This document shows positions 2,849-63,195 of a DNA stretch of 64,000 nucleotides, piece after piece. The notes below the pieces were generated by a model. The model saw only the letters and a list, made by a program, of their open reading frames with translations, ran no database searches and was not told the DNA's origin. Position 1 is the stretch's first letter, and each line of letters starts with the position of its first letter. The translations under genes were made by a program, and so were the position numbers. The DNA comes from Sphingobacteriales bacterium (lineage in GTDB: Bacteria > Bacteroidota > Bacteroidia > Sphingobacteriales > Sphingobacteriaceae). The stretch covers positions 28,914-92,913 of the forward strand of contig JBBSQW010000011.1 in NCBI GenBank assembly GCA_038243635.1. The letters are read 5' to 3'.

Positions 2849-2920
2849 TAGCCCGTAGGGGAATCGAACCCCTGTTACCAGAATGAAAATCTGGCGTCCT
2901 AACCCCTAGACGAACGGGCC
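2849..2920 (-). tRNA. tRNA-Glu (anticodon TTC), 3' CCA not encoded
   Basis: Reverse complement folds as cloverleaf: acceptor GGCCCGT/ACGGGCT (G1-U72 wobble), D stem GTCT/GGAC, anticodon stem CCAGA/TCTGG with loop TTTTCAT (anticodon TTC), T stem AGGGG/CCCCT with TTCGATT loop. Confidence 0.85.
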
Positions 2921-2951
2921 ATAAAAAAAGAGTTGTCTTTCAAACTCTTTA

Positions 2952-3026
<75 letters not shown>

Positions 3027-3111
3027 CTGTATTTTAATTTCCTTACAATAACTATCTTTCTGTAAGTTTTTAATCTTCAAAGCTTGTTAATGTTAAACAA
3101 GTTTAATATTG

Positions 3112-3183
3112 TAGCCCGTAGGGGAATCGAACCCCTGTTACCAGAATGAAAATCTGGCGTCCTAACCCCTAGACGAACGGGCC
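3112..3183 (-). tRNA. tRNA-Glu (TTC), second identical copy
   Basis: Identical sequence to 2849-2920 copy. Confidence 0.85.
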
Positions 3184-3242
3184 ATTAATTTAAAAGCTTG
3201 CCTTGCTTTAGCTTTACGCTTGAAGCCTTTAGCTTTCTAAGG

Positions 3243-3315
<73 letters not shown>

Positions 3316-4338: not shown

Positions 4339-4473
4339 CGCAAGTGTTATTATTCTTCAGACAAAATTAGAAAAATTTAGGGCAGTTTAATTTTAAGAAT
4401 GTTATAGAGATTTCTAAGCCTCAGTTTAATTACTGATATTCTTATTCGGGCGTTCGAGACGGGCTTTCCGCTT

Positions 4474-4545
4474 TATCTTTTTTTGTCATCCTGAGCAGAG
4501 TCGAAGGACAAAAAAAGGATACCGCTACAATCCCTAACGCAAAAT
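4474..4545. repeat. Intergenic hairpin repeat element, copy 1 (T7-GTC stem / conserved 19-nt loop / GAC-A7 stem, plus conserved tail ...taacgcaaaatt)
   Basis: tttttttgtc-atcctgagcagagtcgaag-gacaaaaaaa followed by ggataccgctacaatccctaacgcaaaatt. A second copy at 63121-63195 has the same flanks/tail but the hairpin core in reverse-complement orientation. Sits between convergent era and GHL10 genes. Confidence 0.6.
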
Positions 4546-4661
4546 TCCTTGCTTATACAGGTTTCTCCAACAATTTTTACATTTGGTCGATGTTATCACC
4601 GCACCACCCTCAAGAGATATTCAAAGGAATTCTTGGTATGCAAAAAAGTATGAACAAAATT

Positions 4662-6406: not shown

Positions 6407-7858
6407 CTACAAATCAAACCACATCTTGTCGAAATATTTAGGTTGTGGAGTAGGAATATTAGGATTTGCAGTTGTCTCATCAGGAGACAACTCAAATCTT
6501 CTGATAAGCGGACCTGCTGTTGCATCTAGAGGAAGCGTCAAAGCTGGAAACTCATTTCCATCCGAACCGGATCTTCTCCACTGAGTAAATGCTTCTAATG
6601 GACGATCCATTAAATCAATCCATTGCTGCGTGTGAATATCTTTTACTGGATCTACTGAAATTGCCAACACTGGCAATTGGGTAGTAAGATATGTGGAAAC
6701 CGCTGTAGCATCAGATTCATAAAAATCCATGGAAGCTTTTACTCCATTAGAAAACAAGGTTTGAGCTGTAGCCAAATCTTGTGTCACACCGAGACCTCTT
6801 GCGTAAGCTTCTGCTTGAAGTAAAGCAATTTCTTGATACGTTAAAATCAAAGATGGCGCATTTTTTCTATATATGTATGCACTTATTAAAGAAGTCGTTT
6901 CATCAGCAAGTTCTTCCGTTTTCACAGACTTATAATCTGTCGCGTCCTCACCTTTATCGAAAAACCTTGGAATACGAGGATCATCTTTTGGTTGCATATA
7001 ATCAAAAACAAAAGAATTCGCAAAAAACCACTGGTTTTCACCGTCTGTATAGGTTTTAAACAATCTGTATTTAGGATTTTCGTTATTAGTCTTATCGTAA
7101 TATGGATGAAGCCAGCTATCTGCAGGTGAAGCAATCATATCTGCGGCGTTAGCAAGCATTTGACCGACCTGGGATGCCTTAGTTGGGTCTTTATCAACCA
7201 TTAACATCAAAATTTTGAACTTGATAGAGTTAGCAACTTTTTTCCATTTTGTCATATCGCCTTTGTAGTAGATATCATAATCCGTAATCTTTAAGGGACT
7301 AGCAGGATCTATTTGTGCGCTAGCTTCATCTAACAACTTCAATAGGCCTTCCAACACATCTTTCTGAGCATCATATTTGGGATACGGAAATTTGTCTGCT
7401 TGCCACGCTTCAGTGTACGGCACATCTCCGTATAATGTAGTTGCTTCGTAAATCATTTGTGCCAAAACAATTTTGCACTGTGCAGCTGTATTGTTATTTG
7501 CAGGAACGGCACTTTCAGCATCGCGAATTGCTAACTGCAAATTATTACCTGCTGTACTATAAAAAACTTTCCAGGTATTACCTAAAGTGAAAGGACTTAA
7601 ATCATAAACGTTACTCTTCTCCCATCCAAAATCACCTCCACTAGCTATATTTTGTGCAAAAAGTCCTGTTGGAAGCCATAGGTCACCACTATTTTTATTA
7701 GCGTCCCAAGCGGTAATAGCGTAACCAAAAAGCAAATTAGGTTGCACTTTATTAGCTGTTAGCGGGCTCGTATTTATATCGAGAAACTTCTTACAGGATA
7801 CTCCTCCAATGGCAACCAGCACCATCAAAAGATATATAATTCTATTTATTGTTTTCAT
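6407..7858 (-). CDS. SusD/RagB-family nutrient-binding outer membrane lipoprotein
   Basis: 483 aa, lipoprotein signal (GGVSC), immediately downstream (11-nt gap) of SusC-like TonB-dependent receptor; size and position typical for SusD-like. Confidence 0.75.
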   Translation of the reverse strand: MKTINRIIYLLMVLVAIGGVSCKKFLDINTSPLTANKVQPNLLFGYAITAWDANKNSGDLWLPTGLFAQNIASGGDFGWEKSNVYDLSPFTLGNTWKVFYSTAGNNLQLAIRDAESAVPANNNTAAQCKIVLAQMIYEATTLYGDVPYTEAWQADKFPYPKYDAQKDVLEGLLKLLDEASAQIDPASPLKITDYDIYYKGDMTKWKKVANSIKFKILMLMVDKDPTKASQVGQMLANAADMIASPADSWLHPYYDKTNNENPKYRLFKTYTDGENQWFFANSFVFDYMQPKDDPRIPRFFDKGEDATDYKSVKTEELADETTSLISAYIYRKNAPSLILTYQEIALLQAEAYARGLGVTQDLATAQTLFSNGVKASMDFYESDATAVSTYLTTQLPVLAISVDPVKDIHTQQWIDLMDRPLEAFTQWRRSGSDGNEFPALTLPLDATAGPLIRRFELSPDETTANPNIPTPQPKYFDKMWFDL

Positions 7859-14112: not shown

Positions 14113-16929
14113 TTACTTACTCAAATACATCGATTTCTCTCTGGATAGTTGGATAAAGTATGGGTCTTCTAAATCTTTAATGAAACGAATGGCTTCACCA
14201 GTTGATTTCATCTCCGGACCTAATTCTTTCTGAATTTCAGGGAATTTATTATGAGAAAAAACGGGTTCTTTAATGGCATAACCTTCTAGCTTTCTTACGA
14301 TGGTAAAGTCTTTCAATTTTTTAGTGCCTAACATTACCTTAGTTGCAATGTTGATATAAGCCACACCGTAAGCTTTCGCGATAAATGGAACTGTACGAGA
14401 AGCTCTTGGATTTGCCTCGATAACGTAAACATCTTCTCCTTTAATCGCAAACTGCATATTCATCAACCCACGAATGTTCAATGCTCTCGCAATTTTCTCC
14501 GTGTATTGCTCCATCTTTTTAATAACTGCTGCTGATAAACTGAAGGTAGGCAGCACAGCGTTTGAATCTCCAGAGTGAATTCCCGCTGGCTCTATGTGTT
14601 CCATTAAACCGATGATATGCACCTCATCACCATCAAAAATACAGTCAGATTCAGCTTCTTCTGCTCTATCCAAGAAATGATCAATTAACACACGGTTACC
14701 GGGCAAATCTCCTAAAAGTTTTACTACTGCGGTTTCTAAATCTTCATCATTAATTACAATGCTCATTCCTTGTCCACCTAAAACGTAAGACGGGCGAACC
14801 AGCACCGGGTAACCAACTTCCTTAGCTACCGCGATAGCTTCTTCGGCACTTTCCGCAACGCCATATTTAGGGTAAGGGATGCCTAATTCTTTCAATAAGT
14901 CAGAGAAACTTCCACGGTCTTCAGCAAGATCCATGTTCTCGAAACTAGTTCCGATAATTTTAATTCCTTTTTCATGAAGTTTTTCAGCCATTTTTAAAGC
15001 CGTTTGACCACCAAGCTGAACAATTACTCCTTCTGGTTGCTCTAGCTCAATAATTTCACGTACATGTTCCCAAAAAACTGGCTCAAAATATAATTTGTCT
15101 GCCATGTTAAAATCTGTAGAAACCGTTTCTGGATTGCAGTTAATCATGATAGCCTCGTATCCTTCTTCATGAGCAGCAATTAAACCGTGTACACAAGAAT
15201 AATCAAACTCAATTCCTTGTCCAATTCTATTTGGGCCAGAACCTAAAACAACAACTTTTTTCTTTTTTGAAGGTATAGATTCGTTCTCGCCTTCGTAAGT
15301 AGAGTAGAAATAAGGGGTTTGTGCTGGAAATTCCGCAGCACAAGTATCCACCATTTTATATACTCGATTAATGCCTAAAACTTTCCTACGGTCGTAAACT
15401 TCGTCTTCGGTTACGTTTCCTAATATCCAAGCAATTTGGACATCAGAAAAACCTTTTTGTTTAATGGTATAGAAGAAATCTTTAGGGATGTTATTTAAAG
15501 AATAACGCTTAAGCTCTTGTTCCAGAGCCGTCATATCTTGAATCTCGTTCAAAAACCATTTATCAATTTTAGTAACTTTACGGATGGACTCTAAAGGAAC
15601 GCCCATACGCATCGCATCTTTTATGGCAAACAACCTGTCCCAACTTGGATGCTCCAACTTGTGCATGATGTCTTCAATGTTGCGGTTTTCTTTTCCGTCT
15701 GAACCTAAACCAGCTCTGCCAATTTCTAAAGACTGACAAGCTTTTTGTAAAGCTTCAATGAAAGAACGACCAATTCCCATTACCTCACCTACAGATTTCA
15801 TCTGTAAACCAAGTTCTGTGTTTGCGCCTTTAAATTTATCGAAATTCCAACGAGGGATTTTTACGATAACGTAGTCTAAAGTAGGTTCAAAATATGCGGA
15901 AGTAGTTTTTGTGATCTGATTTTCTAGTTCATCCAAGTTGTAACCGATGGCCAATTTAGCCGCGATTTTTGCAATTGGATAACCTGTTGCTTTTGAAGCT
16001 AAGGCTGATGAACGTGATACACGTGGGTTAATTTCGATAGCGATGATGCTTTCATCGGCTGGATTTACCGAAAACTGAACGTTACAACCACCTGCAAAAT
16101 TACCGATTGCTCGCATCATTTTAATAGCCTGGTTACGCATATCCTGGTAACAACGGTCAGACAAGGTCATTGCCGGCGCTACCGTGATTGAATCCCCAGT
16201 ATGGATTCCCATTGGGTCAAAATTCTCTATCGAGCAGATGATAATTACGTTGTCTTTATTGTCACGCAATAACTCTAACTCATATTCTTTCCAACCGATA
16301 ACCGCTTGTTCTACCAAAACCTCGTGAGTTGGTGAAGCAGTTAAACCATGAGAAAGTGCTGCGTCGAAATCTTCTTTTTTATGTACGAAACCACCACCGT
16401 AACCTCCTAATGTATAAGAAGGGCGAATTACCAATGGAAAACCAATTTCTTGTGCTGCTTCTTTACCTTCTAAAAAGGAGTTTGCAATTTTAGATTGCGC
16501 AACGCCAATACCTATATCAACCATTAATTGACGGAAAGCCTCGCGGTTTTCAGTTTTTTCAATCGCTGCGGTATCAACACCTATAATTTTTACACCGTAT
16601 TTTTCCCAAATTCCACGTTCTTCTGCTTCAATAGCTAAGTTTAAGGCAGTTTGGCCACCCATGGTTGGCAATACAGCATCAATCTGGCGTTCTTGTAAAA
16701 TCTCTTCTAAAGAAGCAACAGTTAAAGGCTTTAAGTAAATGTGGTCCGCAATTAGCTCATCCGTCATGATGGTTGCAGGGTTGGAATTGATGATCGAAAC
16801 TTCGATTCCTTCTTCTTTTAAAGATAAAGAAGCCTGAGAACCGGCATAATCAAATTCACAAGCCTGACCAATGATAATAGGTCCTGAACCGATGATTAAA
16901 ACTGATTTAATGGAAGTATTTTTTGGCAT
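14113..16929 (-). CDS. carB: Carbamoyl-phosphate synthase large subunit
   Basis: 938 aa; duplicated ATP-grasp halves, N-terminus MPKNTSIKSVLIIGSGPIIIGQACEFDYAGSQA, C-terminal MGS-like domain. Confidence 0.95.
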   Translation of the reverse strand: MPKNTSIKSVLIIGSGPIIIGQACEFDYAGSQASLSLKEEGIEVSIINSNPATIMTDELIADHIYLKPLTVASLEEILQERQIDAVLPTMGGQTALNLAIEAEERGIWEKYGVKIIGVDTAAIEKTENREAFRQLMVDIGIGVAQSKIANSFLEGKEAAQEIGFPLVIRPSYTLGGYGGGFVHKKEDFDAALSHGLTASPTHEVLVEQAVIGWKEYELELLRDNKDNVIIICSIENFDPMGIHTGDSITVAPAMTLSDRCYQDMRNQAIKMMRAIGNFAGGCNVQFSVNPADESIIAIEINPRVSRSSALASKATGYPIAKIAAKLAIGYNLDELENQITKTTSAYFEPTLDYVIVKIPRWNFDKFKGANTELGLQMKSVGEVMGIGRSFIEALQKACQSLEIGRAGLGSDGKENRNIEDIMHKLEHPSWDRLFAIKDAMRMGVPLESIRKVTKIDKWFLNEIQDMTALEQELKRYSLNNIPKDFFYTIKQKGFSDVQIAWILGNVTEDEVYDRRKVLGINRVYKMVDTCAAEFPAQTPYFYSTYEGENESIPSKKKKVVVLGSGPNRIGQGIEFDYSCVHGLIAAHEEGYEAIMINCNPETVSTDFNMADKLYFEPVFWEHVREIIELEQPEGVIVQLGGQTALKMAEKLHEKGIKIIGTSFENMDLAEDRGSFSDLLKELGIPYPKYGVAESAEEAIAVAKEVGYPVLVRPSYVLGGQGMSIVINDEDLETAVVKLLGDLPGNRVLIDHFLDRAEEAESDCIFDGDEVHIIGLMEHIEPAGIHSGDSNAVLPTFSLSAAVIKKMEQYTEKIARALNIRGLMNMQFAIKGEDVYVIEANPRASRTVPFIAKAYGVAYINIATKVMLGTKKLKDFTIVRKLEGYAIKEPVFSHNKFPEIQKELGPEMKSTGEAIRFIKDLEDPYFIQLSREKSMYLSK

Positions 16930-16994: not shown

Positions 16995-17306
16995 GCAAAG
17001 GTAGGAAATGTAAACTTTTATTTAGAATAAATTTTAGAATTTCTTGATTTTGATATCGGAGGATGATGGATTTGTAAGTTCTATGTTTAAAGAGCTCTTC
17101 TTTTGGGCGTTCCCGCAGAAAAAAGTGGTTAGGTTACTCGTTGCAAATACTCTCCAGCACCTATCTGAGGTGATTTTTTTAAGTGAGCCAAAAGCTTTGC
17201 TTTGGAACTATCCGTAATGTGGCTTCCGTATATTAAAAAAGGTCGTTAAAAACAGAAGTTTGAATTACAACTTCAAACACGTATTTTTAAATAAAAAACA
17301 CGTATC

Positions 17307-17548
17307 ATGAGCACAAAACTAACTTTGACAGCAAAAAATCTGTCATTGAACGGGCTAAGTCTTACGCTAAAAGCACAGGAAGAAGTTTGTCAGAAATAAT
17401 AGAAAACTACCTTACAACGCTTACACAAGAAACTTCCGTCTATGAATTATCTCCAAAATTAAAAAGAATAGTGGGTGTAGTAAATCTACCTGCGGACTTT
17501 GATGAGAAACAAGAACTAAGATCAGTTCTAGAAAGAAAGCACTTATGA
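17307..17548 (+). pseudogene. VapB/DUF6364-like antitoxin, apparent frameshift near 5' end
   Basis: ATG at 17307 gives MSTKLTLT... then stops after 30 codons. The +2 frame from ~17325 reads FDSKKSVIERAKSYAKSTGRSLSEIIENYL...LPADFDEKQELRSVLERKHL but has no start codon. Frames switch within an A6 run. Likely a 1-bp indel (authentic or sequencing error). Confidence 0.5.
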
Positions 17549-17555
17549 TGATTTT

Positions 17556-17948
17556 TTGGACACCAATATAATTATCGATTTGATTGCTGATAGAAAGCCT
17601 TTCAGCAAACATGCCATCCAGATTTTTCAAAAAGCAGAAGAAGGAAATTTAAAACTTTTCACTTCTTCTCATTCCATTGCTACAACCCATTACCTATTGA
17701 AAAAATACGTGGAGGAGAAGGATTTAAGGAACGTATTATACAATCTTTTAGAATATGTTAGCGTAGTTGCTGTTGATATATTAAAAAAAGGATTACGCTC
17801 TAACTATAAAGGTTTTGAAGATTCGATTCAAATCTTTTGCGCATCATCCGTAGAAAACATTAACGCCATTATTACCAGAAATGTAAAAGACTTTAAAGGA
17901 AGCGAGATAAAGGTTATGACACCTGACGAGTTAACTTTAAGTTTTTAA
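17556..17948 (+). CDS. PIN-domain toxin (VapC-like), TTG start
   Basis: 130 aa; N-terminal LDTNIIIDL (PIN motif with Asp), conserved acidic residues; overlaps end of antitoxin frame. Confidence 0.75.
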   Translation: MDTNIIIDLIADRKPFSKHAIQIFQKAEEGNLKLFTSSHSIATTHYLLKKYVEEKDLRNVLYNLLEYVSVVAVDILKKGLRSNYKGFEDSIQIFCASSVENINAIITRNVKDFKGSEIKVMTPDELTLSF

Positions 17949-17977
17949 ACCAACTCACGATTTCGCATTATGGTAAT

Positions 17978-18079
17978 TCATTGTGATTGGTCGCACCAAA
18001 GAATACGAATATGGTTGGCCATAATTACGTAGCCATAAAGCCAAATGCATTCATCTAACAAAAGTTTCAAATTAAATCC
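17978..18079 (-). pseudogene. Truncated RAYT (REP-associated tyrosine transposase) remnant
   Basis: Minus-strand translation FNLKLLLDECIWLYGYVIMANHIRILWCDQSQ* aligns with RAYT residues ...SLRFLVAEKRIWVYGYVIMPNHSHILW of the intact gene at 18605-19114. HuH motif degenerate (HIR). N-terminal side replaced by a REP copy at 18079-18105. Confidence 0.55.
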
Positions 18080-18606
18080 TACCTGTGGTCAGTGCTTTCA
18101 CCACCTAATGTAGCTTCCGTTTGAACATCTGACTTCGTTGCCTCAACCTACAGGCATTTCATGGTGTGAGGCTCTCTTTTGTATTTGAAAAACACTAAAT
18201 AGTGATTTTATCCGGAATATGTACCGTTAACTTAAATTCCGTCATAACTTTCAAAAGAAGCGAAAGTTTATTGTACGTAAAGAACATTCAAAGTTTTTTA
18301 CCTGTGGTCGGTGTTATCACCGCACCACCTATGTGTTCCATGTATTTAGTAAGCAGTGAATCAGCAACGTTTTCACCTGTGGTCGGTGTGATCACCGCAC
18401 CACCTATGTGTTTCATGTATTTAGTAAGCAGTGAATCAGCAACTTTAGTGGTATGGTGATAACACCAACCACCGGGAGCGAACTAATTACTCGTGATGAT
18501 TCACCTGTGGTCGGGTTATCACCGCACCACCTATGTGTTCCATGTATTTAGTAAGCATTGAGTCAGCAACGTTTTTACCTGTGGTCGGTGTGCTCACCGC
18601 ACCACT
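18079..18606. repeat. REP/REPIN array, 3' side of RAYT
   Basis: Degenerate REP at 18079-18105; composite units (REP acctgtggtcggtgttatcaccgcaccacc + 45-nt tail tatgtgttccatgtatttagtaagcagtgaatcagcaacgtttt) at 18300-18374, 18375-18446, 18503-18576 and partial 18577-18606; inverted REP agtggtatggtgataacaccaaccaccggg at 18447-18476. REP core is a GGTG-TTAT-CACC hairpin. Confidence 0.85.
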
Positions 18607-19114
18607 ATATATGATCCATATAGTGAGTAATCAAAGGATCTGGAATATTTAAAATGTAATACTTGGCAGAAGAGAAATGATATTCTTCAGGCAAACTACA
18701 TAATTCTTTTTTAACAGGGTTATAATGAATGTAGTCGAGCTTTTGCTCTAATATTTCACGAGAAAACATTGTTGCTTTGTATGGTCGCCTTTCCCAAAAA
18801 TGATATAATCTATCCGCTTGAGTGCTTCTATAATTCTCAAGTTCAAGCGGGTGATGCTGGAGCATGTTAAACTTGATTTGCTGGGCTGTAAATTTAAGGA
18901 ACTGTTGCTGGACATTCTTTTCTACCCATTCATCTTGTTTCCTCCATAGAATATGACTGTGGTTTGGCATAATTACATACCCATAAACCCAAATCCGTTT
19001 TTCAGCAACTAAAAATCTCAAACTGTCCAGTACTATCTCCTTGTGTTTTGGCCAAGCCAGAAGAGTTTGCCAGTTAAGACAGGTTGCGGTAAAGAATTCT
19101 AAACCATTGGACAT
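18605..19114 (-). CDS. REP-associated tyrosine transposase (RAYT; IS200/IS605-like HuH Y1 transposase)
   Basis: 169 aa; HuH-type motif MPNHSHIL, C-terminal tyrosine region (SSAKYYILN), size typical of TnpA_REP; flanked on both sides by REP arrays; 3' end overlaps a REP copy. Confidence 0.8.
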   Translation of the reverse strand: MSNGLEFFTATCLNWQTLLAWPKHKEIVLDSLRFLVAEKRIWVYGYVIMPNHSHILWRKQDEWVEKNVQQQFLKFTAQQIKFNMLQHHPLELENYRSTQADRLYHFWERRPYKATMFSREILEQKLDYIHYNPVKKELCSLPEEYHFSSAKYYILNIPDPLITHYMDHI

Positions 19115-19136
19115 AAGTTAAATATAAAAAGAAAAT

Positions 19137-19640
19137 TGGTATGGTTATAACACCAACTGAAAAAAAATCGGTATCAAGAGTGGTGTGATGATAACACCAA
19201 CCACAGGATAAAATATAAAAAGAATAGCGGTATATCTGTAGTGGTTTGGTGATAACACCAACCCTGAAGAGTTATCACTAAGTTTTTAAAATTTGCGATA
19301 AAGCATACGAGCGGATTTCACCTCCATGTTTTGGCTCCACCAGATTTCACTGTGGTCGGTGTTATCACCGCATTACCTATGTGTTCCATGTATTTAGTAA
19401 GCAGTGAATCAGCGACGTTTAGTGGTATGGTGATAACACCAACCACAGGGAAAATAACACCAAAAAAAACCTAATGGGCTGATGATAAAATTAGGGTAAA
19501 CCTGTGGCCGGTGTTATCAACGCACCTTACAGTAGGTTGTGTTCGATACTGAATTGTTGAATAAATTGTAGTGGTTTGGTGACAGAACCCGCAGAAAAAC
19601 TATGACCTATTGTAGTGGTTTGGCGATGACACCAACCACA
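19137..19640. repeat. REP/REPIN array, 5' side of RAYT
   Basis: Inverted-type REPs (gtggt.tggtgataacaccaaccac) at 19137-19159 (degenerate), 19179-19207, 19239-19266, 19421-19450, 19568-19590 (degenerate), 19612-19640; forward-type REP plus tail at 19348-19420 and REP at 19500-19527. Adjacent forward/inverted pairs form REPIN-like doublets. Confidence 0.85.
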
Positions 19641-19731
19641 TAAAAGAGATAAAACTTATTCGACTCAGACTTATTAAAACGGGTCGAATCTACTTGGTTT
19701 TGACTTTGTTGGATTAGTGTTAATTAAGCTC

Positions 19732-20680
19732 CTATCCTTTGTTAATTTGAAAGATATTGGAAGCATACACAACCCTCACTGGTAACCCTTTTTGAATCCC
19801 GGGATTCCATCTTGGTGCATTCATAAGCACTCGTAATGCTTCTCCGTCGCAACCATCTCCTATTCCACTTATAACTTTACCTTCTACTATAGATCCATCT
19901 CCATCTACAATAAACCTAACCGTAACCCTACCTTCAGTACAATTATTTTCCGCCATTTTAGGATATCTTAAGGAATTACTTAAGTAATATGCAACTGATT
20001 CCCTACCACCTTTGAATGACGGCAACACTTCTTCTTGGGTGTAGTTAGTCACTTTTCCTTTATCGTTAATAGTACTTCCTTTTAAAAATTGGTCATTTTA
20101 TATTCAGCTAAGTAAGTTTCTTTACTTTTTGGATTGTATACCTTCCAAATTCCGTTTCTATCCCCTTTTAGGTAATCTTCCTCAACAAGTTCTCCATATT
20201 CGTTTGTAGCTTTATAGATCCCCGTTCCGGTTTTGTCTAAAAAATGATGCTCTAAAGAATCGCTAAGTGCCAACATCTTCTCAAGTTTCGCTTTTTTATC
20301 GTCATAAAAGTAATACACCTTTTTTCGCACACTATCGTTCTGAAAATAATAAGTAGCTATCCCATTTTGGCTTACGGCTTTGTACATTTCTACAGAAAGC
20401 TTTTTTCATTTGGATAATAGTTAATTACCTCGCCCTGATACCTGAGCCTAAAATTATTTGTTAATGAGTTACCAGTTTTCTTTAAGCTTTTATCCACGTA
20501 GTATTCAGTTACGGCATAAGTATTTTCGGGGCTTTTTATCAGACTTATGGTACGAATACAAACAGCACTATCAATAGTACTAACTGGGCAAATGCCATCT
20601 CCAACATAATAAGTACTTGTTTCTTGTGCTTGACAAAACAATACGCTTAGCAGCAGTGCAGTTATAATAAAAGTCTTCAT
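19732..20680 (-). pseudogene. Disrupted lipoprotein gene: signal peptide + MORN/YwqK-like repeats + TonB C-terminal domain, split into three ORFs by two frameshifts
   Basis: ORF 20680-20390 (MKTFIITALLLSVLFCQAQ..NYYPNEKSFL*), then 2 nt, then ORF 20387-20082 (MORN-like YYFQNDSVRKKVYYFYDDKK..GIWKVYNPKSKETY), then ORF 20052-19732 (TonB_C: PSFKGGRESVAYYL...GRVTVRFIVDGDGSI...ALRVLMNAPRWNPG). TonB_C frame is open upstream to just beside the stop of the middle ORF. Both junctions lie in homopolymer runs (A6; T5A4). Confidence 0.5.
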
Positions 20681-20753
20681 AATTTTAAATTCATTTGTCA
20701 ATAGTAATGTTTTTCTGGAATAATCTTTGCCTACTCCTTTCAAAATAATAATC

Positions 20754-21278
20754 ATGAAAAAGCAAATATTAGCATTCACATTTATTGTGTTCTTTATAAG
20801 TAGCTGCGCTACCTTACAATCTATTGTTAAATCAACATTTCCTTACACCGCAACTTTAATTATTCCTGCAAATCAGAGTACTGGTAAAAACTACTCGGCC
20901 ACTAGCTCTGCAAGTAGTCTTGATCAAATTTTTACCGGTAGTAATTCCAATACCGATCAAATTAGTGAGGTACGAATTAACTCTGCAAAAATTGAAGCAG
21001 TAAATCCATCCAACCAAAAGTTGGGTGTATTTAAATCCATCAAAGTTTACCTTTTGAATGGAAATACCGAAGTGATGGTTGCCTCAAGAAACGACATTGC
21101 TTCTACCGCAGGTAATAGCTTAGTTTTAGACATTGACAACAGCAGGTTTTTAGATAGTTATTTAAAAAATGGTCCAGTGCGAGTGCGGGTTGATTACGTT
21201 TTACAGAACAACTTAACAGTGGATTTAAGCGTGAAAGCCAGCTTAGGGTTTAATACCACACCTACTGCCAACAAATAA
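20754..21278 (+). CDS. Lipoprotein of unknown function
   Basis: Start taken at MKKQILAFTFIVFFISSC (lipobox) rather than ORF-track 20727; Ser/Thr/Asn-rich; no recognisable motif. Confidence 0.6.
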   Translation: MKKQILAFTFIVFFISSCATLQSIVKSTFPYTATLIIPANQSTGKNYSATSSASSLDQIFTGSNSNTDQISEVRINSAKIEAVNPSNQKLGVFKSIKVYLLNGNTEVMVASRNDIASTAGNSLVLDIDNSRFLDSYLKNGPVRVRVDYVLQNNLTVDLSVKASLGFNTTPTANK

Positions 21279-34676: not shown

Positions 34677-35108
34677 AGTTAAAAACCAATAATAATTGTT
34701 TGGCTACAAACTAGCATCATTTTATAGCGAGCAAAAGATCAATTCCTCCAGCTCATAAACACACAGTTTAGCTTTCTAGAATGACATTTTGTTGAGTTAA
34801 AACGGTATAATAATTAACCTGAGTTCAATTAATAAGTTTGCTTAACAGTATTCTAAATAATTTGTGGAGGGTTTAATAGCGTTAACGATGGGAGCGGCAT
34901 CCTTTTTGGCTTTTTTTCCAAAAAGATAAAGCGGACAGCGTGTTAAAACGCCCTTGTAATTAGTCACCTTCCTTTTTCACTATTGGACTTAGGTTATCAC
35001 TAAACACCTAATTTGCTGATTTTTAAAGCTTCTATACAAAACCGATTTTTTTAACTTACCTTTGCCAAAAAATTATGCCGGTAAGATAAGACCGGGAAAC
35101 CCCACATT

Positions 35109-63073: not shown

Positions 63074-63120
63074 TCTTGTTGTTTAAATATTATTAGGGCG
63101 TTTTAACACGCTATCCGTTA

Positions 63121-63195
63121 TATCTTTTTTGCTTAGCCTTCGACTCCGCTCAGGCTGACAAAAAAGGATGTCACTGCTATCGTTAACGCAAAATT
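63121..63195. repeat. Intergenic hairpin repeat element, copy 2 (core inverted relative to copy 1)
   Basis: tatctttttt-gcttagccttcgactccgctcaggctgac-aaaaaaggatgtcactgctatcgttaacgcaaaatt; reverse complement of core matches copy-1 core with 2 mismatches; tails and left flanks co-linear with copy 1. Confidence 0.6.

What the first reader, a model, noticed from the sequence alone, without database searches (positions are those of the whole stretch)
17978..19640. RAYT (REP-associated tyrosine transposase) embedded in a dense bidirectional REP/REPIN array in a Bacteroidota genome
A 169-aa IS200-like HuH/Y1 transposase (MPNHSHIL motif) sits inside about 1.5 kb made almost entirely of a roughly 28-nt palindromic repeat. 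The repeat is present in both orientations (acctgtggtcggtgttatcaccgcaccacc and gtggtatggtgataacaccaaccac). It is often fused to a conserved 45-nt tail, forming head-to-head REPIN-like doublets, and one copy overlaps the transposase stop. This is the architecture described for REP/RAYT systems in Proteobacteria, where the RAYT is proposed to mobilise REPINs. Such systems are poorly characterised in Sphingobacteriia. The composite REP plus 45-nt tail unit and the two-sided array with at least 14 copies suggest an active or recently active REPIN population with its cognate enzyme.
Basis: partly seen in the sequence, partly recalled or inferred. Interest (0 to 1): 0.75.

Follow-up and report, generated by a model that had tools for sequence, protein, structure and literature searches.

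The report
RAYT transposase inside its REP-hairpin cluster
This is a real but already known kind of element: a domesticated single-strand DNA transposase gene (RAYT) in a Pedobacter-like bacterium, surrounded by 14 copies of the small DNA hairpin it is thought to copy. The one new detail is that the repeat's "45-nt tail" is a leftover of the transposase gene's own 3' end.

Summary
Window 18079-19644 holds 14 copies, 7 on each strand, of a ~28-33-nt hairpin repeat around an intact 169-aa ORF (18605-19114, minus strand). One further copy lies 14 kb away at 4575-4607.

The protein is a RAYT/TnpA_REP homolog:
- NCBIfam NF047646, E 4e-22, 1.4 bits under the cut-off.
- An AlphaFold model whose best PDB match is E. 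coli TnpA_REP (4ER8).
- Invariant HuH, WE, Y-x-H-x-NP and SS motifs.

The same hairpin flanks homologous RAYT genes in about a dozen Sphingobacteriaceae genomes. It is also dispersed without a RAYT in about 100 other loci, mostly as singlets or as inverted doublets of one preferred orientation. This matches the Bacteroidetes-specific RAYT subclass 2.6 of Quentin et al. 2018, so it is a new member of a known kind.

Corrections and additions:
- The "45-nt tail" is a relic of the last 14 RAYT codons. The composite unit is therefore [RAYT 3' end + REP], duplicated locally.
- The locus also holds a decayed second RAYT.
- The REPtron plus a PIN toxin-antitoxin module fills 2.7 kb of an intergenic gap that is 113-283 nt long in four relatives.
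- The HuH motif reads H-S-H, unique among 108 homologs.

Genome-wide REPIN activity in this organism could not be tested.

The parts
18605..19114 (-). Intact RAYT (TnpA_REP-like Y1 HuH) gene, 169 aa. It has H52-S53-H54, W107-E108, Y128-I-H-Y-N132-P133 and S148-S149.
   Evidence: ORF. NF047646 78.6 bits, E 4e-22. Invariant motif columns. AlphaFold pLDDT 84. Foldseek best match 4er8_A. HSH is unique among 108 homologs.
18573..18607 (+). 3'-flanking REP (type A, GTGGTCGGTG-TGCT-CACCGCACCAC). It overlaps the RAYT stop codon.
   Evidence: nhmmer E 2.8e-8; sequence. The same position and orientation are seen in 12 homologous loci.
19136..19162 (-). 5'-flanking REP (type B, degenerate), about 20 nt upstream of the RAYT start codon.
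   Evidence: nhmmer E 1.1e-4. The equivalent 5' REP lies about 40 nt upstream in homologous loci.
18296..18371 (+). Composite unit 1: REP-A (18296-18328) plus a RAYT 3'-end relic. The relic reads NVADSLLTKYMEHI on the minus strand (18330-18371).
   Evidence: PSSM 32.0 bits, against 3.5 for the best unrelated window.
18371..18477 (.). REPIN-like doublet 1: REP-A (18371-18403, +), RAYT 3'-end relic (18405-18446), REP-B (18446-18477, -).
   Evidence: (I1). PSSM 18.6 bits. ssDNA fold -20 kcal/mol, z -3.5.
18500..18573 (+). Composite unit 3: REP-A with a 1-nt deletion (18500-18530) plus a RAYT 3'-end relic (18532-18573).
   Evidence: PSSM 31.5 bits.
19179..19265 (-). Two further type-B REPs upstream of the RAYT (19179-19211 and 19240-19265). 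The second is truncated where a PIN-gene 3'-end relic begins.
   Evidence: nhmmer E 2.3e-8 and 4.3e-7.
19263..19290 (+). Tentative relic copy of the PIN gene's last 28 nt including the stop codon (24/28 identical to 17922-17949). It is followed by a weak RAYT N-terminal relic up to about 19344.
   Evidence: the repeat finder D8 and D11; alignment. Chance is not excluded.
19345..19453 (.). REPIN-like doublet 2: REP-A (19345-19376, +), RAYT 3'-end relic (19378-19419), REP-B (19421-19453, -).
   Evidence: Arms 92% complementary (I5). Fold -22.7 kcal/mol, z -4.5. PSSM 32.0 bits.
19499..19596 (.). REPIN-like doublet 3: REP-A variant (19499-19526, +) and degenerate REP-B (19570-19596, -). The 43-nt spacer is not tail-like.
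   Evidence: Spacer identity to the tails is at the shuffle mean.
19613..19644 (-). Outermost REP-B, 88 nt downstream of the TonB_C gene stop. It is probably the counterpart of the solo REP at the same site in relative L123.
   Evidence: nhmmer E 4.6e-7. L123 REP at 7728-7757, directly after the TonB_C stop.
17975..18105 (-). Decayed second RAYT copy (residues about 34-64, with stops). It abuts the PIN stop codon and is truncated by a degenerate REP at 18079-18105 (+).
   Evidence: Family HMM 26.5 bits, E 1.9e-9. tblastn 48% identity, E 9e-6. 77% nt identity to 18935-18999 (D6).
17307..17948 (+). DUF6364-like antitoxin (apparently frameshifted near 17320-17335) and PIN-domain toxin (17556-17948). 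Together with the REPtron they are part of the extra 2.7-kb segment.
   Evidence: Pfam PF19891, PF13470. Segment defined by comparison with L123-L126.
4575..4607 (+). Dispersed solo REP, 14 kb from the array and 30 nt from a Flavo-1 RNA motif.
   Evidence: nhmmer E 3.1e-6; the DNA search 2 mismatches; Rfam.

Best explanation
The locus is a REPtron: one intact RAYT gene bracketed by inverted copies of its cognate REP hairpin, set in a locally amplified REP cluster. The host is a Pedobacter/Pelobium-like member of the Sphingobacteriaceae.

Shown:
- The protein has the RAYT sequence signature and fold.
- The REP is a bulged 10-bp hairpin with a conserved unpaired 5'-CCT tag (AGG on the other strand) in place of GTAG.
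- The same hairpin flanks orthologous RAYTs about 40 nt upstream and about 20 nt downstream in a dozen genomes.
- The hairpin also occurs away from any RAYT, often as inverted doublets in one preferred orientation.
- The stem shows C:G to T:A covariation.
The repeated unit is therefore [RAYT 3' end + downstream REP].
- The two tail-bearing doublets have the layout 5' REP, last 45 nt of RAYT, 3' REP. That is the RAYT unit with almost the whole gene missing.
- A second, decayed RAYT copy lies in the same array.

Inferred, by analogy with E. coli TnpA_REP (PMC3333891, PMC8266576):
- The enzyme binds the folded single-stranded hairpin plus tag. It cleaves nearby through Tyr128 with HuH-bound metal and rejoins strands.
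- This mobilises REPs or doublets in trans at low frequency.
- It also amplifies units locally, here including a cleavage or junction site about 47 nt inside its own 3' end.
- The tails most likely descend from the older, now decayed RAYT copy. They are 86-95% identical to each other but only 60-64% identical to the resident gene's end.
For: Protein:
- NF047646 at E 4e-22. All 38 aligned homologs hit this model, best E 3e-26.
- A profile of the homologs hits only 4er8 in the PDB sequence search, E 9e-4.
- Foldseek best match 4er8_A, E 4.7e-6, TM 0.63/0.65, ahead of the IS200/IS605 TnpAs.
- Invariant N51 H52 H54 W107 E108 Y128 H130 N132 P133 S148 S149.

REP:
- 14 local copies plus 1 distant copy.
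- Stable ssDNA hairpins.
- Consensus from 140 copies shows conserved AGG 3' of the stem (A 0.87, G 0.78, G 0.96).
- Covariation counts: C:G 126, T:A 17, T:G 7, other 3; Fisher p 2e-14.

Architecture in other genomes:
- A 5' REP in the same orientation and a 3' REP in the opposite orientation around RAYT in 12 loci.
- More than 117 stretches from about 78 assemblies carry the hairpin. Several genomes have multiple loci, for example SMC90 with 6 and NFX135 with 4.
- In loci without a RAYT, adjacent REP pairs are '+-' 39 times and '-+' 4 times.

Tail as RAYT 3' end:
- Nucleotide alignment with gene ends of other species.
- A PSSM of the family's last 14 residues was scored over 127,918 six-frame windows. 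It ranks the gene end (46.4 bits) and the four tails (32.0, 32.0, 31.5, 18.6) as the top five. The next best window scores 3.5.
- Orphan [tail + REP] units also occur in L041 (two), L043, L013 and L050.

Other:
- Second RAYT relic.
- Literature match to subclass 2.6, including the Runella REP GTTGTTGGTGTTATCACCAACAAC.
Against: - The protein is 1.4 bits below the NF047646 cut-off and gives no Pfam PF01797 hit.
- Its HuH motif is H-S-H, whereas 102 of the 108 homologs checked have H-[IVLM]-H. The enzyme may be impaired.
- Only 1 of 15 REPs in the 64-kb window lies outside the array.
- The source genome could not be retrieved. A genome-wide REP or REPIN population in this organism is therefore unproven.
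- The composite tail was not found in metagenome contigs.
- Most dispersed REPs in other genomes have no tail.
- No biochemical data exist for this subclass. The cleavage site and the active strand are inferred.
Confidence: 0.8

Rival explanations
1. The array is a product of host processes, and the RAYT is now inactive or irrelevant. Those processes would be replication slippage or unequal recombination between direct REP copies, together with decay of duplicated RAYT genes. On this view the locus is a fossil, not an active REPIN source.
For: - 14 of 15 REPs in the window are local.
- Head-to-tail 75-nt units (18296, 18371; 18500, 18573) are the pattern expected from slippage.
- Unit copies are 86-95% identical, so they are not very recent.
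- The H-S-H motif is unique in the family.
- The composite was not found elsewhere.
- Neighbouring genes look degraded: TonB_C is split into 3 frames and the antitoxin is frameshifted.
Against: - The RAYT ORF is intact and 60-79% identical to hundreds of intact homologs, with all catalytic motifs conserved.
- [Tail + REP] units with nearly the same 5' boundary (47-48 nt from AGG to the stop) recur in independent lineages: the window, L041 and L043. Two of them are not next to a RAYT. Random deletion does not predict this.
- Slippage needs a pre-existing REP at that internal gene position.
Confidence: 0.3
2. It is an autonomous IS200/IS605-type insertion sequence. The REPs are its left and right subterminal hairpins, and the whole gene-plus-ends unit transposes.
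For: - The gene is bordered by hairpins, as in IS200/IS605.
- The fold also matches ISDra2 and IS608 TnpA.
- RAYT neighbourhoods are not syntenic between species.
- The REPtron-containing segment is absent from the orthologous carB-TonB_C gap of four relatives.
- A second decayed copy exists in the locus.
Against: - The best structural and profile match is TnpA_REP, not TnpA_IS200.
- The Y motif is Y-x-x-x-N-P, the class 2/TnpA_REP signature in PMC6006769, not the class 1 form.
- The two ends are inverted copies of the same repeat.
- Hairpins far outnumber genes. They occur alone at about 100 loci, whereas each multi-locus genome sampled showed one RAYT locus.
- There is no tnpB.
Confidence: 0.08
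3. The hairpins are primarily host regulatory elements, such as terminators or mRNA-stabilising structures. Their clustering next to a transposase-like gene would then be incidental.
For: REPs in E. coli have such roles (background in PMC6006769). The solo REPs here sit just downstream of genes: 4575-4607, and L123 after the TonB_C stop.
Against: - No terminator-like sites are found in the array, as there are no T-runs.
- 14 copies in both orientations within 1.6 kb have no regulatory rationale.
- The strict association with RAYT flanks in a dozen genomes is not incidental.
Confidence: 0.05

Closest known systems
TnpA_Y1 subclass 2.6 of Quentin et al. 2018 (PMC6006769), equal to RAYT Group 5 of Bertels et al. 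2017: Bacteroidetes-specific RAYTs with atypical flanking hairpins
   Same: - Phylum.
- NH[LIV]H-type HuH context and a YIH[QNY]NP Y motif.
- SS motif after the catalytic Tyr.
- Hairpins that lack GT[AG]G and have copies elsewhere in the genome.
- Table S1 of that paper lists, for Runella slithyformis AEI49282.1, the REP GTTGTTGGTG-TTAT-CACCAACAAC. It has the same loop and inner stem as the REP here.
   Different: - The W motif here is WE, not WQ.
- Length is 169 aa against a typical 179 aa.
- The HuH-to-Y distance is 76 residues against a median of 82.
- The hairpin here is strong (-9 to -10 kcal/mol), whereas that paper reports a weaker secondary structure for these REP-like motifs (classes 2.6 and 3).
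- Assignment to 2.6 was not tested by phylogeny.
E. coli K-12 REPtron: TnpA_REP (YafM, PDB 4ER8) with REP/BIME
   Same: - Best structural match.
- A single gene bracketed by inverted bulged REP hairpins within a REP cluster.
- REPs dispersed in trans.
- A published model of local BIME amplification through cleavage at linker sites (PMC3333891).
   Different: - 17% sequence identity.
- The tag is CCT rather than GTAG.
- The HuH reads NHSH here and HMH in the 4ER8 chain.
- REP copy number appears to be tens rather than hundreds. This is an extrapolation, not a count.
- Here the amplified unit carries a piece of the transposase gene.
Pseudomonas fluorescens SBW25 REPIN-RAYT system (Bertels & Rainey 2011, PMC3116915)
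   Same: - Inverted REP doublets with a fixed spacer that can fold into a long hairpin.
- A RAYT flanked by them.
- Tandem REPIN clusters.
- The hypothesis that REPINs derive from the flanks of an ancestral IS200-like element.
   Different: - No population-level evidence here, such as a master sequence, hundreds of copies or observed excisions.
- The doublet spacer here is recognisably RAYT coding sequence. I did not find this described for SBW25.
IS200/IS605 family (IS608, ISDra2 TnpA)
   Same: HuH/Y1 fold, subterminal hairpins and single-strand chemistry.
   Different: - A weaker structural match.
- A different Y-motif class.
- Inverted identical ends.
- No tnpB.
- Hairpins greatly outnumber genes.

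Membership tests
RAYT / TnpA_REP (Y1 HuH, class 2) | HuH metal-binding motif on a beta strand | tested here: met
   N51-H52-S53-H54 aligns with the HMH of 4ER8. H52 and H54 are invariant. The middle residue is Ser, unique among 108 homologs, so the motif is present but atypical.
RAYT / TnpA_REP (Y1 HuH, class 2) | Catalytic Tyr in a Y-x-x-x-N-P motif, the class 2 signature in PMC6006769 | tested here: met
   Y128-I-H-Y-N132-P133. Y128, H130, N132 and P133 are invariant in 38 homologs. The motif aligns with DYIYINP of 4ER8.
RAYT / TnpA_REP (Y1 HuH, class 2) | Curated HMM membership (NCBIfam NF047646; Pfam PF01797) | tested here: inconclusive
   NF047646 scores 78.6 bits against a cut-off of 80, E 4e-22. 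All 38 homologs hit it, best E 3e-26. PF01797 gives no hit for this protein and only weak hits (best E 2.5e-4) in 35 of 38 homologs.
RAYT / TnpA_REP (Y1 HuH, class 2) | Fold closest to TnpA_REP | tested here: met
   AlphaFold model pLDDT 84, pTM 0.83. Foldseek rank 1 is 4er8_A, E 4.7e-6, TM 0.63/0.65 over 164 columns. IS200/IS605 TnpAs follow at E >= 6e-4.
REPtron | Gene bracketed by inverted copies of a palindromic repeat that also occurs elsewhere in the genome | tested here: met
   In the window: REP at 18573-18607 (+) and 19136-19162 (-), plus a distant copy at 4575-4607. The same layout is seen in 12 homologous loci. There are dispersed copies at several loci per genome in relatives.
REPtron | Single full-length RAYT per REP family per genome | not testable with these tools
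   The source genome was not retrievable. Within 64 kb there is one intact gene plus relics.
Canonical GTAG-tagged REP (E. coli / Pseudomonas type) | 5' GT[AG]G tetranucleotide at the foot of the hairpin | tested here: not met
   The consensus of 140 copies has CCT (AGG on the other strand) next to the stem. The opposite flank is not conserved beyond one A. This agrees with the description of subclass 2.6.
REPIN (Bertels & Rainey) | Two REPs in inverted orientation with a short, fixed spacer, forming a long hairpin | tested here: met
   The window has three doublets with 42-44-nt spacers. Folds are -20 to -23 kcal/mol. In loci without a RAYT in other genomes the orientation bias is 39 '+-' against 4 '-+'.
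REPIN (Bertels & Rainey) | A replicating population: many near-identical doublets dispersed over the genome | not testable with these tools
   Only the 64-kb window of the source genome is available. No doublet lies outside the array. The metagenome scan for the composite gave 0 hits.
IS200/IS605 insertion sequence | Multiple near-identical copies of the whole element; distinct LE/RE; often tnpB | tested here: not met
   There is one intact gene. The only other copy is a diverged relic (48% aa identity, with stops). The ends are inverted copies of one repeat. No tnpB-like ORF is adjacent.
RAYT function | Binding, cleavage and strand transfer on the cognate single-stranded REP | not testable with these tools
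   This needs biochemistry. It has been done only for the E. coli, Stenotrophomonas and Marinomonas enzymes (PMC3333891, PMC8266576).

The most novel reading that the evidence does not exclude
The [last ~45 nt of RAYT + REP] module may be a genuine RAYT-generated unit whose 5' boundary is a cleavage or joining site inside the enzyme's own gene. The doublets of the form '5' REP, RAYT tail, 3' REP' would then be newly born REPINs made by internal deletion of a RAYT unit, in the manner of a MITE. That would be direct sequence evidence for the proposal of Bertels & Rainey (2011) that REPINs descend from the flanks of an IS200-like ancestor. It would also show the process recurring in several Sphingobacteriaceae lineages.
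Probability: 0.25. Interest if true: 0.6.

Novelty: new member of a known kind. Interest (0 to 1): 0.38.

Why it matters
RAYT/REP systems have been dissected almost entirely in Gammaproteobacteria. This locus gives a clean, compact Bacteroidota example with three useful properties:
- A well-defined hairpin: CCT tag, bulge, TTAT loop.
- That hairpin is conserved almost unchanged in assemblies labelled as three orders: Sphingobacteriales, Cytophagales and Chitinophagales.
- Repeat units still carry a recognisable piece of the transposase gene.

If those units are RAYT products, they would mark where the enzyme cuts. They would also show how REPIN-like doublets arise from a RAYT unit. Both points are testable with a short oligonucleotide cleavage assay.

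Otherwise the finding is ordinary. The gene family is already named RayT by annotation pipelines, and it was surveyed in 2018.

Tried and rejected
- Source contig retrieval. I looked up the exact RAYT protein, its database twin P0001 and CarB. None is on record, so genome-wide REP counts for this organism were impossible.
- Metagenome scan for the window's tail-REP junction: 0 hits.
- Metagenome scan for inverted doublets with 30-60-nt spacers. Only 3 loci were found, and their spacers are unrelated to RAYT. Tail-derived spacers are therefore not a general property of the family's doublets.
- Pfam scan of the protein: no PF01797 hit for this sequence. I rejected this as evidence against homology because the RAYT-specific model and the fold agree. 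The literature also notes that PF01797 aligns only partially with TnpA_REP sequences.
- Synteny of RAYT neighbours across species: none found.
- Third doublet spacer (19527-19569) as a diverged tail: identity is at the shuffle mean, so this was rejected.
- Extended palindrome including the A-rich flanks: not supported by the 140-copy consensus.
- Rfam scan and terminator scan: nothing in the array.
- RAYT homology of 19291-19344 after the second PIN-end copy: weak, kept only as tentative.
Full report
OBSERVATION

The region was read directly. ORFs and repeats were listed.

A profile built from the local copies finds 14 copies between 18079 and 19644:
- Seven on the plus strand: 18079, 18296, 18371, 18500, 18573, 19345, 19499.
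- Seven on the minus strand: 18446, 19136, 19179, 19240, 19421, 19570, 19613.
- One further copy at 4575-4607.

With up to 3 mismatches the 25-mer matches 8 times, against 0 in 100 shuffles.

Each copy folds as single-stranded DNA into a 10-bp stem with one bulged base and a 4-nt loop. Free energy is -9 to -10 kcal/mol and z is -4 to -5.

Plus-strand copies are 'type A' (GTGGT-C-GGTG ... CACC-G-c-ACCAC). Minus-strand copies are 'type B' (T ... A at the same pair). This is a compensatory change.

The 169-aa ORF (18605-19114, minus strand) contains MPNHSHIL. Its TAG stop overlaps the last stem base of the REP at 18573-18607.

Only the phrase 'almost entirely repeat' is an overstatement.

THE PROTEIN

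Sequence evidence:
- Pfam gives no hit at E<=0.01.
- NCBIfam NF047646 'REP-associated tyrosine transposase' matches at 78.6 bits (cut-off 80), E 4e-22, over residues 5-148.
- More than 670 homologs exist, mostly 60-79% identical. They come from Pedobacter, Mucilaginibacter and other Sphingobacteriaceae. JGI names many of them 'REP element-mobilizing transposase RayT'.
- All 38 aligned homologs hit NF047646. 35 of 38 hit PF01797 weakly.

Motifs. The invariant columns are N51, H52, H54, W107, E108, Y128, H130, N132, P133, S148 and S149. These correspond to the HuH, W, Y-x-x-x-NP and SS motifs that Quentin et al. use to define TnpA_REP subclasses.

Structure:
- A profile of the family hits only E. 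coli TnpA_REP (4ER8) in the PDB sequence search, at E 9e-4.
- The AlphaFold model has pLDDT 84.
- Its best Foldseek match is 4er8_A (E 4.7e-6, TM 0.63/0.65), ahead of ISDra2, IS608 and IS200 TnpA.

One oddity. The middle residue of the HuH motif is Ser in this protein only. Among the 108 homologs checked, 102 have I, V, L or M at this position and 5 did not match the motif search. The change is a single ATT-to-AGT transversion. It may reduce activity, or it may be an assembly error.

THE REPEAT IN OTHER GENOMES

These come from about 78 assemblies.

Nearly all assemblies are labelled Mucilaginibacter, Pedobacter, Daejeonella, Sphingobacterium, Hufsiella or Pelobium. Some are labelled Cytophagales, Cyclobacteriaceae, Spirosomataceae or Chitinophagales. 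Three singletons are in unrelated phyla. By my own estimate the pattern should give about 9 chance matches, which covers those three.

Several genomes have copies at widely separated places. SMC90 has six stretches between 1.0 and 7.5 Mb, NFX135 has four, and M. oryzae has five.

Thirteen of the stretches carry a RAYT homolog. In twelve of them the gene has a REP about 40 nt upstream in one orientation and a REP about 20 nt downstream in the inverse orientation. This is exactly the arrangement in the window.

In the roughly 100 stretches without a RAYT, adjacent REPs are '+-' 39 times and '-+' only 4 times, with spacings of 6-84 nt. This is a REPIN-like doublet bias. Half of those stretches hold a single REP.

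The consensus of 140 copies is A-GTGGT-[G/A]-CGGTG-ATAA-CACCG-ACCAC-AGG-CTAAA. There is no conservation on the other side. Read on the opposite strand, the tag is 5'-CCT, not GTAG.

At the one stem pair left free by the scan pattern the counts are C:G 126, T:A 17, T:G 7 and other 3 (Fisher p 2e-14).

WHAT THE '45-NT TAIL' IS

A tblastn search with the RAYT against the window unexpectedly hit the four tails. They read NVADSLLTKYMEHI, against the gene's C-terminus NIPDPLITHYMDHI.

Aligned with the 3' ends of RAYT genes from other species, the tails match codon for codon up to the REP. For example, Pedobacter alpinus has ...CTTACTCATTATATGGAACACATATAG|GTGGTGCGG, and the tail has ...CTTACTAAATACATGGAACACATAG|GTGGTGCGG.

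A position-specific score matrix was built from the last 14 residues of 107 homologs, excluding the window's own protein. It was scored over all 127,918 six-frame windows of the 64 kb. The gene's own end scores 46.4 bits and the four tails score 32.0, 32.0, 31.5 and 18.6. Everything else scores 3.5 or less.

The composite unit is therefore [last 14 codons of a RAYT + the REP that follows the stop]. The two tail-bearing doublets (18371-18477 and 19345-19453) have the layout 5' REP, RAYT tail, 3' REP. That is the RAYT unit with all but 45 nt of the interior missing.

The units are 86-95% identical to each other. The tails are only 60-64% identical to the resident gene's end. Their translation is closer to the family consensus (LLTHYMEHI) than to the resident protein. 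They therefore descend from another RAYT copy.

Such a copy exists as a relic at 17975-18064, covering residues 34-64 with stops (HMM E 1.9e-9). It abuts the PIN gene's stop codon and is cut off by a degenerate REP.

The same PSSM over about 950 kb of related loci finds 12 gene ends and 7 orphan tails (L013, L041 twice, L043, L050, L095 twice). In L041, L043 and the window, the distance from the preceding REP's AGG to the relic stop is 47-48 nt. L043 and L013 have no RAYT in the stretch held.

Most dispersed REPs have no tail. Three metagenomic doublets have unrelated spacers. The module is therefore recurrent but a minority form.

GENOMIC CONTEXT

CarB (14113-16929) is 93% identical to the CarB proteins of Pelobium sp., Pedobacter alpinus and P. 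cryophilus.

In four relatives a TonB_C gene ends 113-283 nt upstream of carB. In the window that gap is 2.7 kb (17048-19731). It contains a DUF6364/PIN toxin-antitoxin pair plus the whole REPtron.

One relative (L123) has a solo REP directly after the TonB_C stop. It is in the same place and orientation as the outermost REP of the window (19613-19644).

The locus is therefore polymorphic among relatives: no REP, a solo REP, or a full REPtron with TA. The direction of change (gain or loss) cannot be decided. In E. coli, both precise loss of tnpA_REP and its replacement by a hicAB TA pair have been described.

RAYT neighbourhoods are not syntenic across the species sampled.

HOW IT MOST LIKELY WORKS

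Shown: the RAYT fold and motifs, the conserved bulged and tagged hairpin, the inverted bracketing of the gene, dispersed solo copies and doublets, and local duplication of units that include the gene's 3' end.

Inferred from E. coli TnpA_REP:
- That enzyme binds folded ssREP plus tag.
- It cleaves at sites beside the inverted REP and in linkers, up to hundreds of nt away.
- It rejoins strands.
- It is proposed to diversify and locally amplify BIMEs.

By this analogy the enzyme here would use Tyr128 and HuH-bound metal to cut near its hairpins. It would occasionally move a REP or doublet in trans, and it would amplify units next to itself.

The recurrent boundary about 47 nt inside the gene coincides with the Leu-Asn codons (C)T(T/G)AAT. 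These resemble the REP's own 3' flank, CT(G/A)AA. This fits either a preferred cleavage or joining site, or microhomology-driven recombination. I cannot tell which.

COMPARISON WITH WHAT IS KNOWN

Quentin et al. 2018 described subclass 2.6, equal to Bertels Group 5. Its properties are:
- mostly Bacteroidetes;
- NH[LIV]H, YIH[QN]NP and SS motifs;
- genes flanked by atypical hairpins without GT[AG]G, with copies elsewhere in the genome.

Their Table S1 lists a Runella slithyformis REP, GTTGTTGGTG-TTAT-CACCAACAAC. It has the same loop and inner stem as the REP here. This locus fits that description, apart from a WE rather than WQ motif and a slightly shorter protein.

It is therefore a new member of a known kind.

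I did not find the RAYT-3'-end module described in the papers read. Bertels & Rainey 2011 only hypothesised that REPINs derive from the flanks of an IS200-like ancestor.

VERDICT

Novelty is low to moderate.

Open points:
- whether this particular enzyme (H-S-H) is active;
- whether a genome-wide REPIN population exists in this organism;
- whether the tail-bearing units are enzyme products or recombination debris.

Noticed in passing
window 17048-19731, compared with L123:7717-8001, L124, L125:7888-8001 and L126:7852-8001: The DUF6364/PIN toxin-antitoxin pair and the REPtron together fill 2.7 kb of an intergenic gap (TonB_C to carB) that is only 113-283 nt long in four relatives. L123 has a solo REP at the same spot. 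A TA module next to a RAYT recalls two earlier points: the hicAB replacement of tnpA_REP in some E. coli strains, and the 'addiction' idea of Bertels & Rainey.
   Followed up: partly
window 18953-18961 (codons H52-S53-H54 of the RAYT): The HuH motif reads H-S-H. Of the 108 homologs checked, 102 have I, V, L or M in the middle position. A single T-to-G change (ATT to AGT) would explain it. It could be an inactivating mutation or a sequencing error.
   Followed up: partly
window 19732-20779 (minus strand): The TonB_C-domain gene next to the array is split into three reading frames (20680-20402, 20393-20112, 20097-19750) relative to orthologs of about 320 aa. It is probably a pseudogene with two frameshifts, or the result of assembly errors.
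   Followed up: partly
window 17307-17548: The DUF6364 antitoxin-like gene starts with ATG at 17307 (MSTKLTL...). The family-matching frame is shifted by one base near 17320-17335, in an A-rich run. From the ATG the frame stops after 31 codons.
   Followed up: partly
window 4453-4545, 34874-34949, 63100-63194: There are three Flavo-1 RNA motifs (Rfam RF01705, 50-59 bits). The first lies 30 nt from the dispersed REP at 4575-4607.
   Followed up: no
window 2849-3315 (minus strand): There is a cluster of four tRNA genes. They look like a duplicated pair, with two at 64.8 bits and two at 62.6 bits.
   Followed up: no
L043:1268-1290: A second hairpin type, CTTGTTGGTGTTGTCACCAACAAG, has the outer-stem sequence of the Runella REP in PMC6006769 Table S1. 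It sits between two copies of the main REP type in a Mucilaginibacter MAG, so two REP subfamilies coexist in one cluster.
   Followed up: no
L126:15131-17119 (Pedobacter alpinus, near carB): A 189-aa product with a faint PF01797 hit lies next to a DDE_Tnp_1 transposase. It is a different Y1-like gene from the RAYT of that genome, which is on another contig (L049).
   Followed up: no
L118:902-2679: The closest RAYT homolog (79% identical, from a Logan contig) has REPs on both sides. It is followed by a phage-integrase-family tyrosine recombinase gene. This neighbourhood differs from the window's.
   Followed up: no
L052, L100, L114: There are single exact matches to the REP pattern in assemblies labelled Comamonadaceae, Bifidobacterium and Agromyces. 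They are probably chance matches (I estimate about 9 across the collection) or bin contamination.
   Followed up: no
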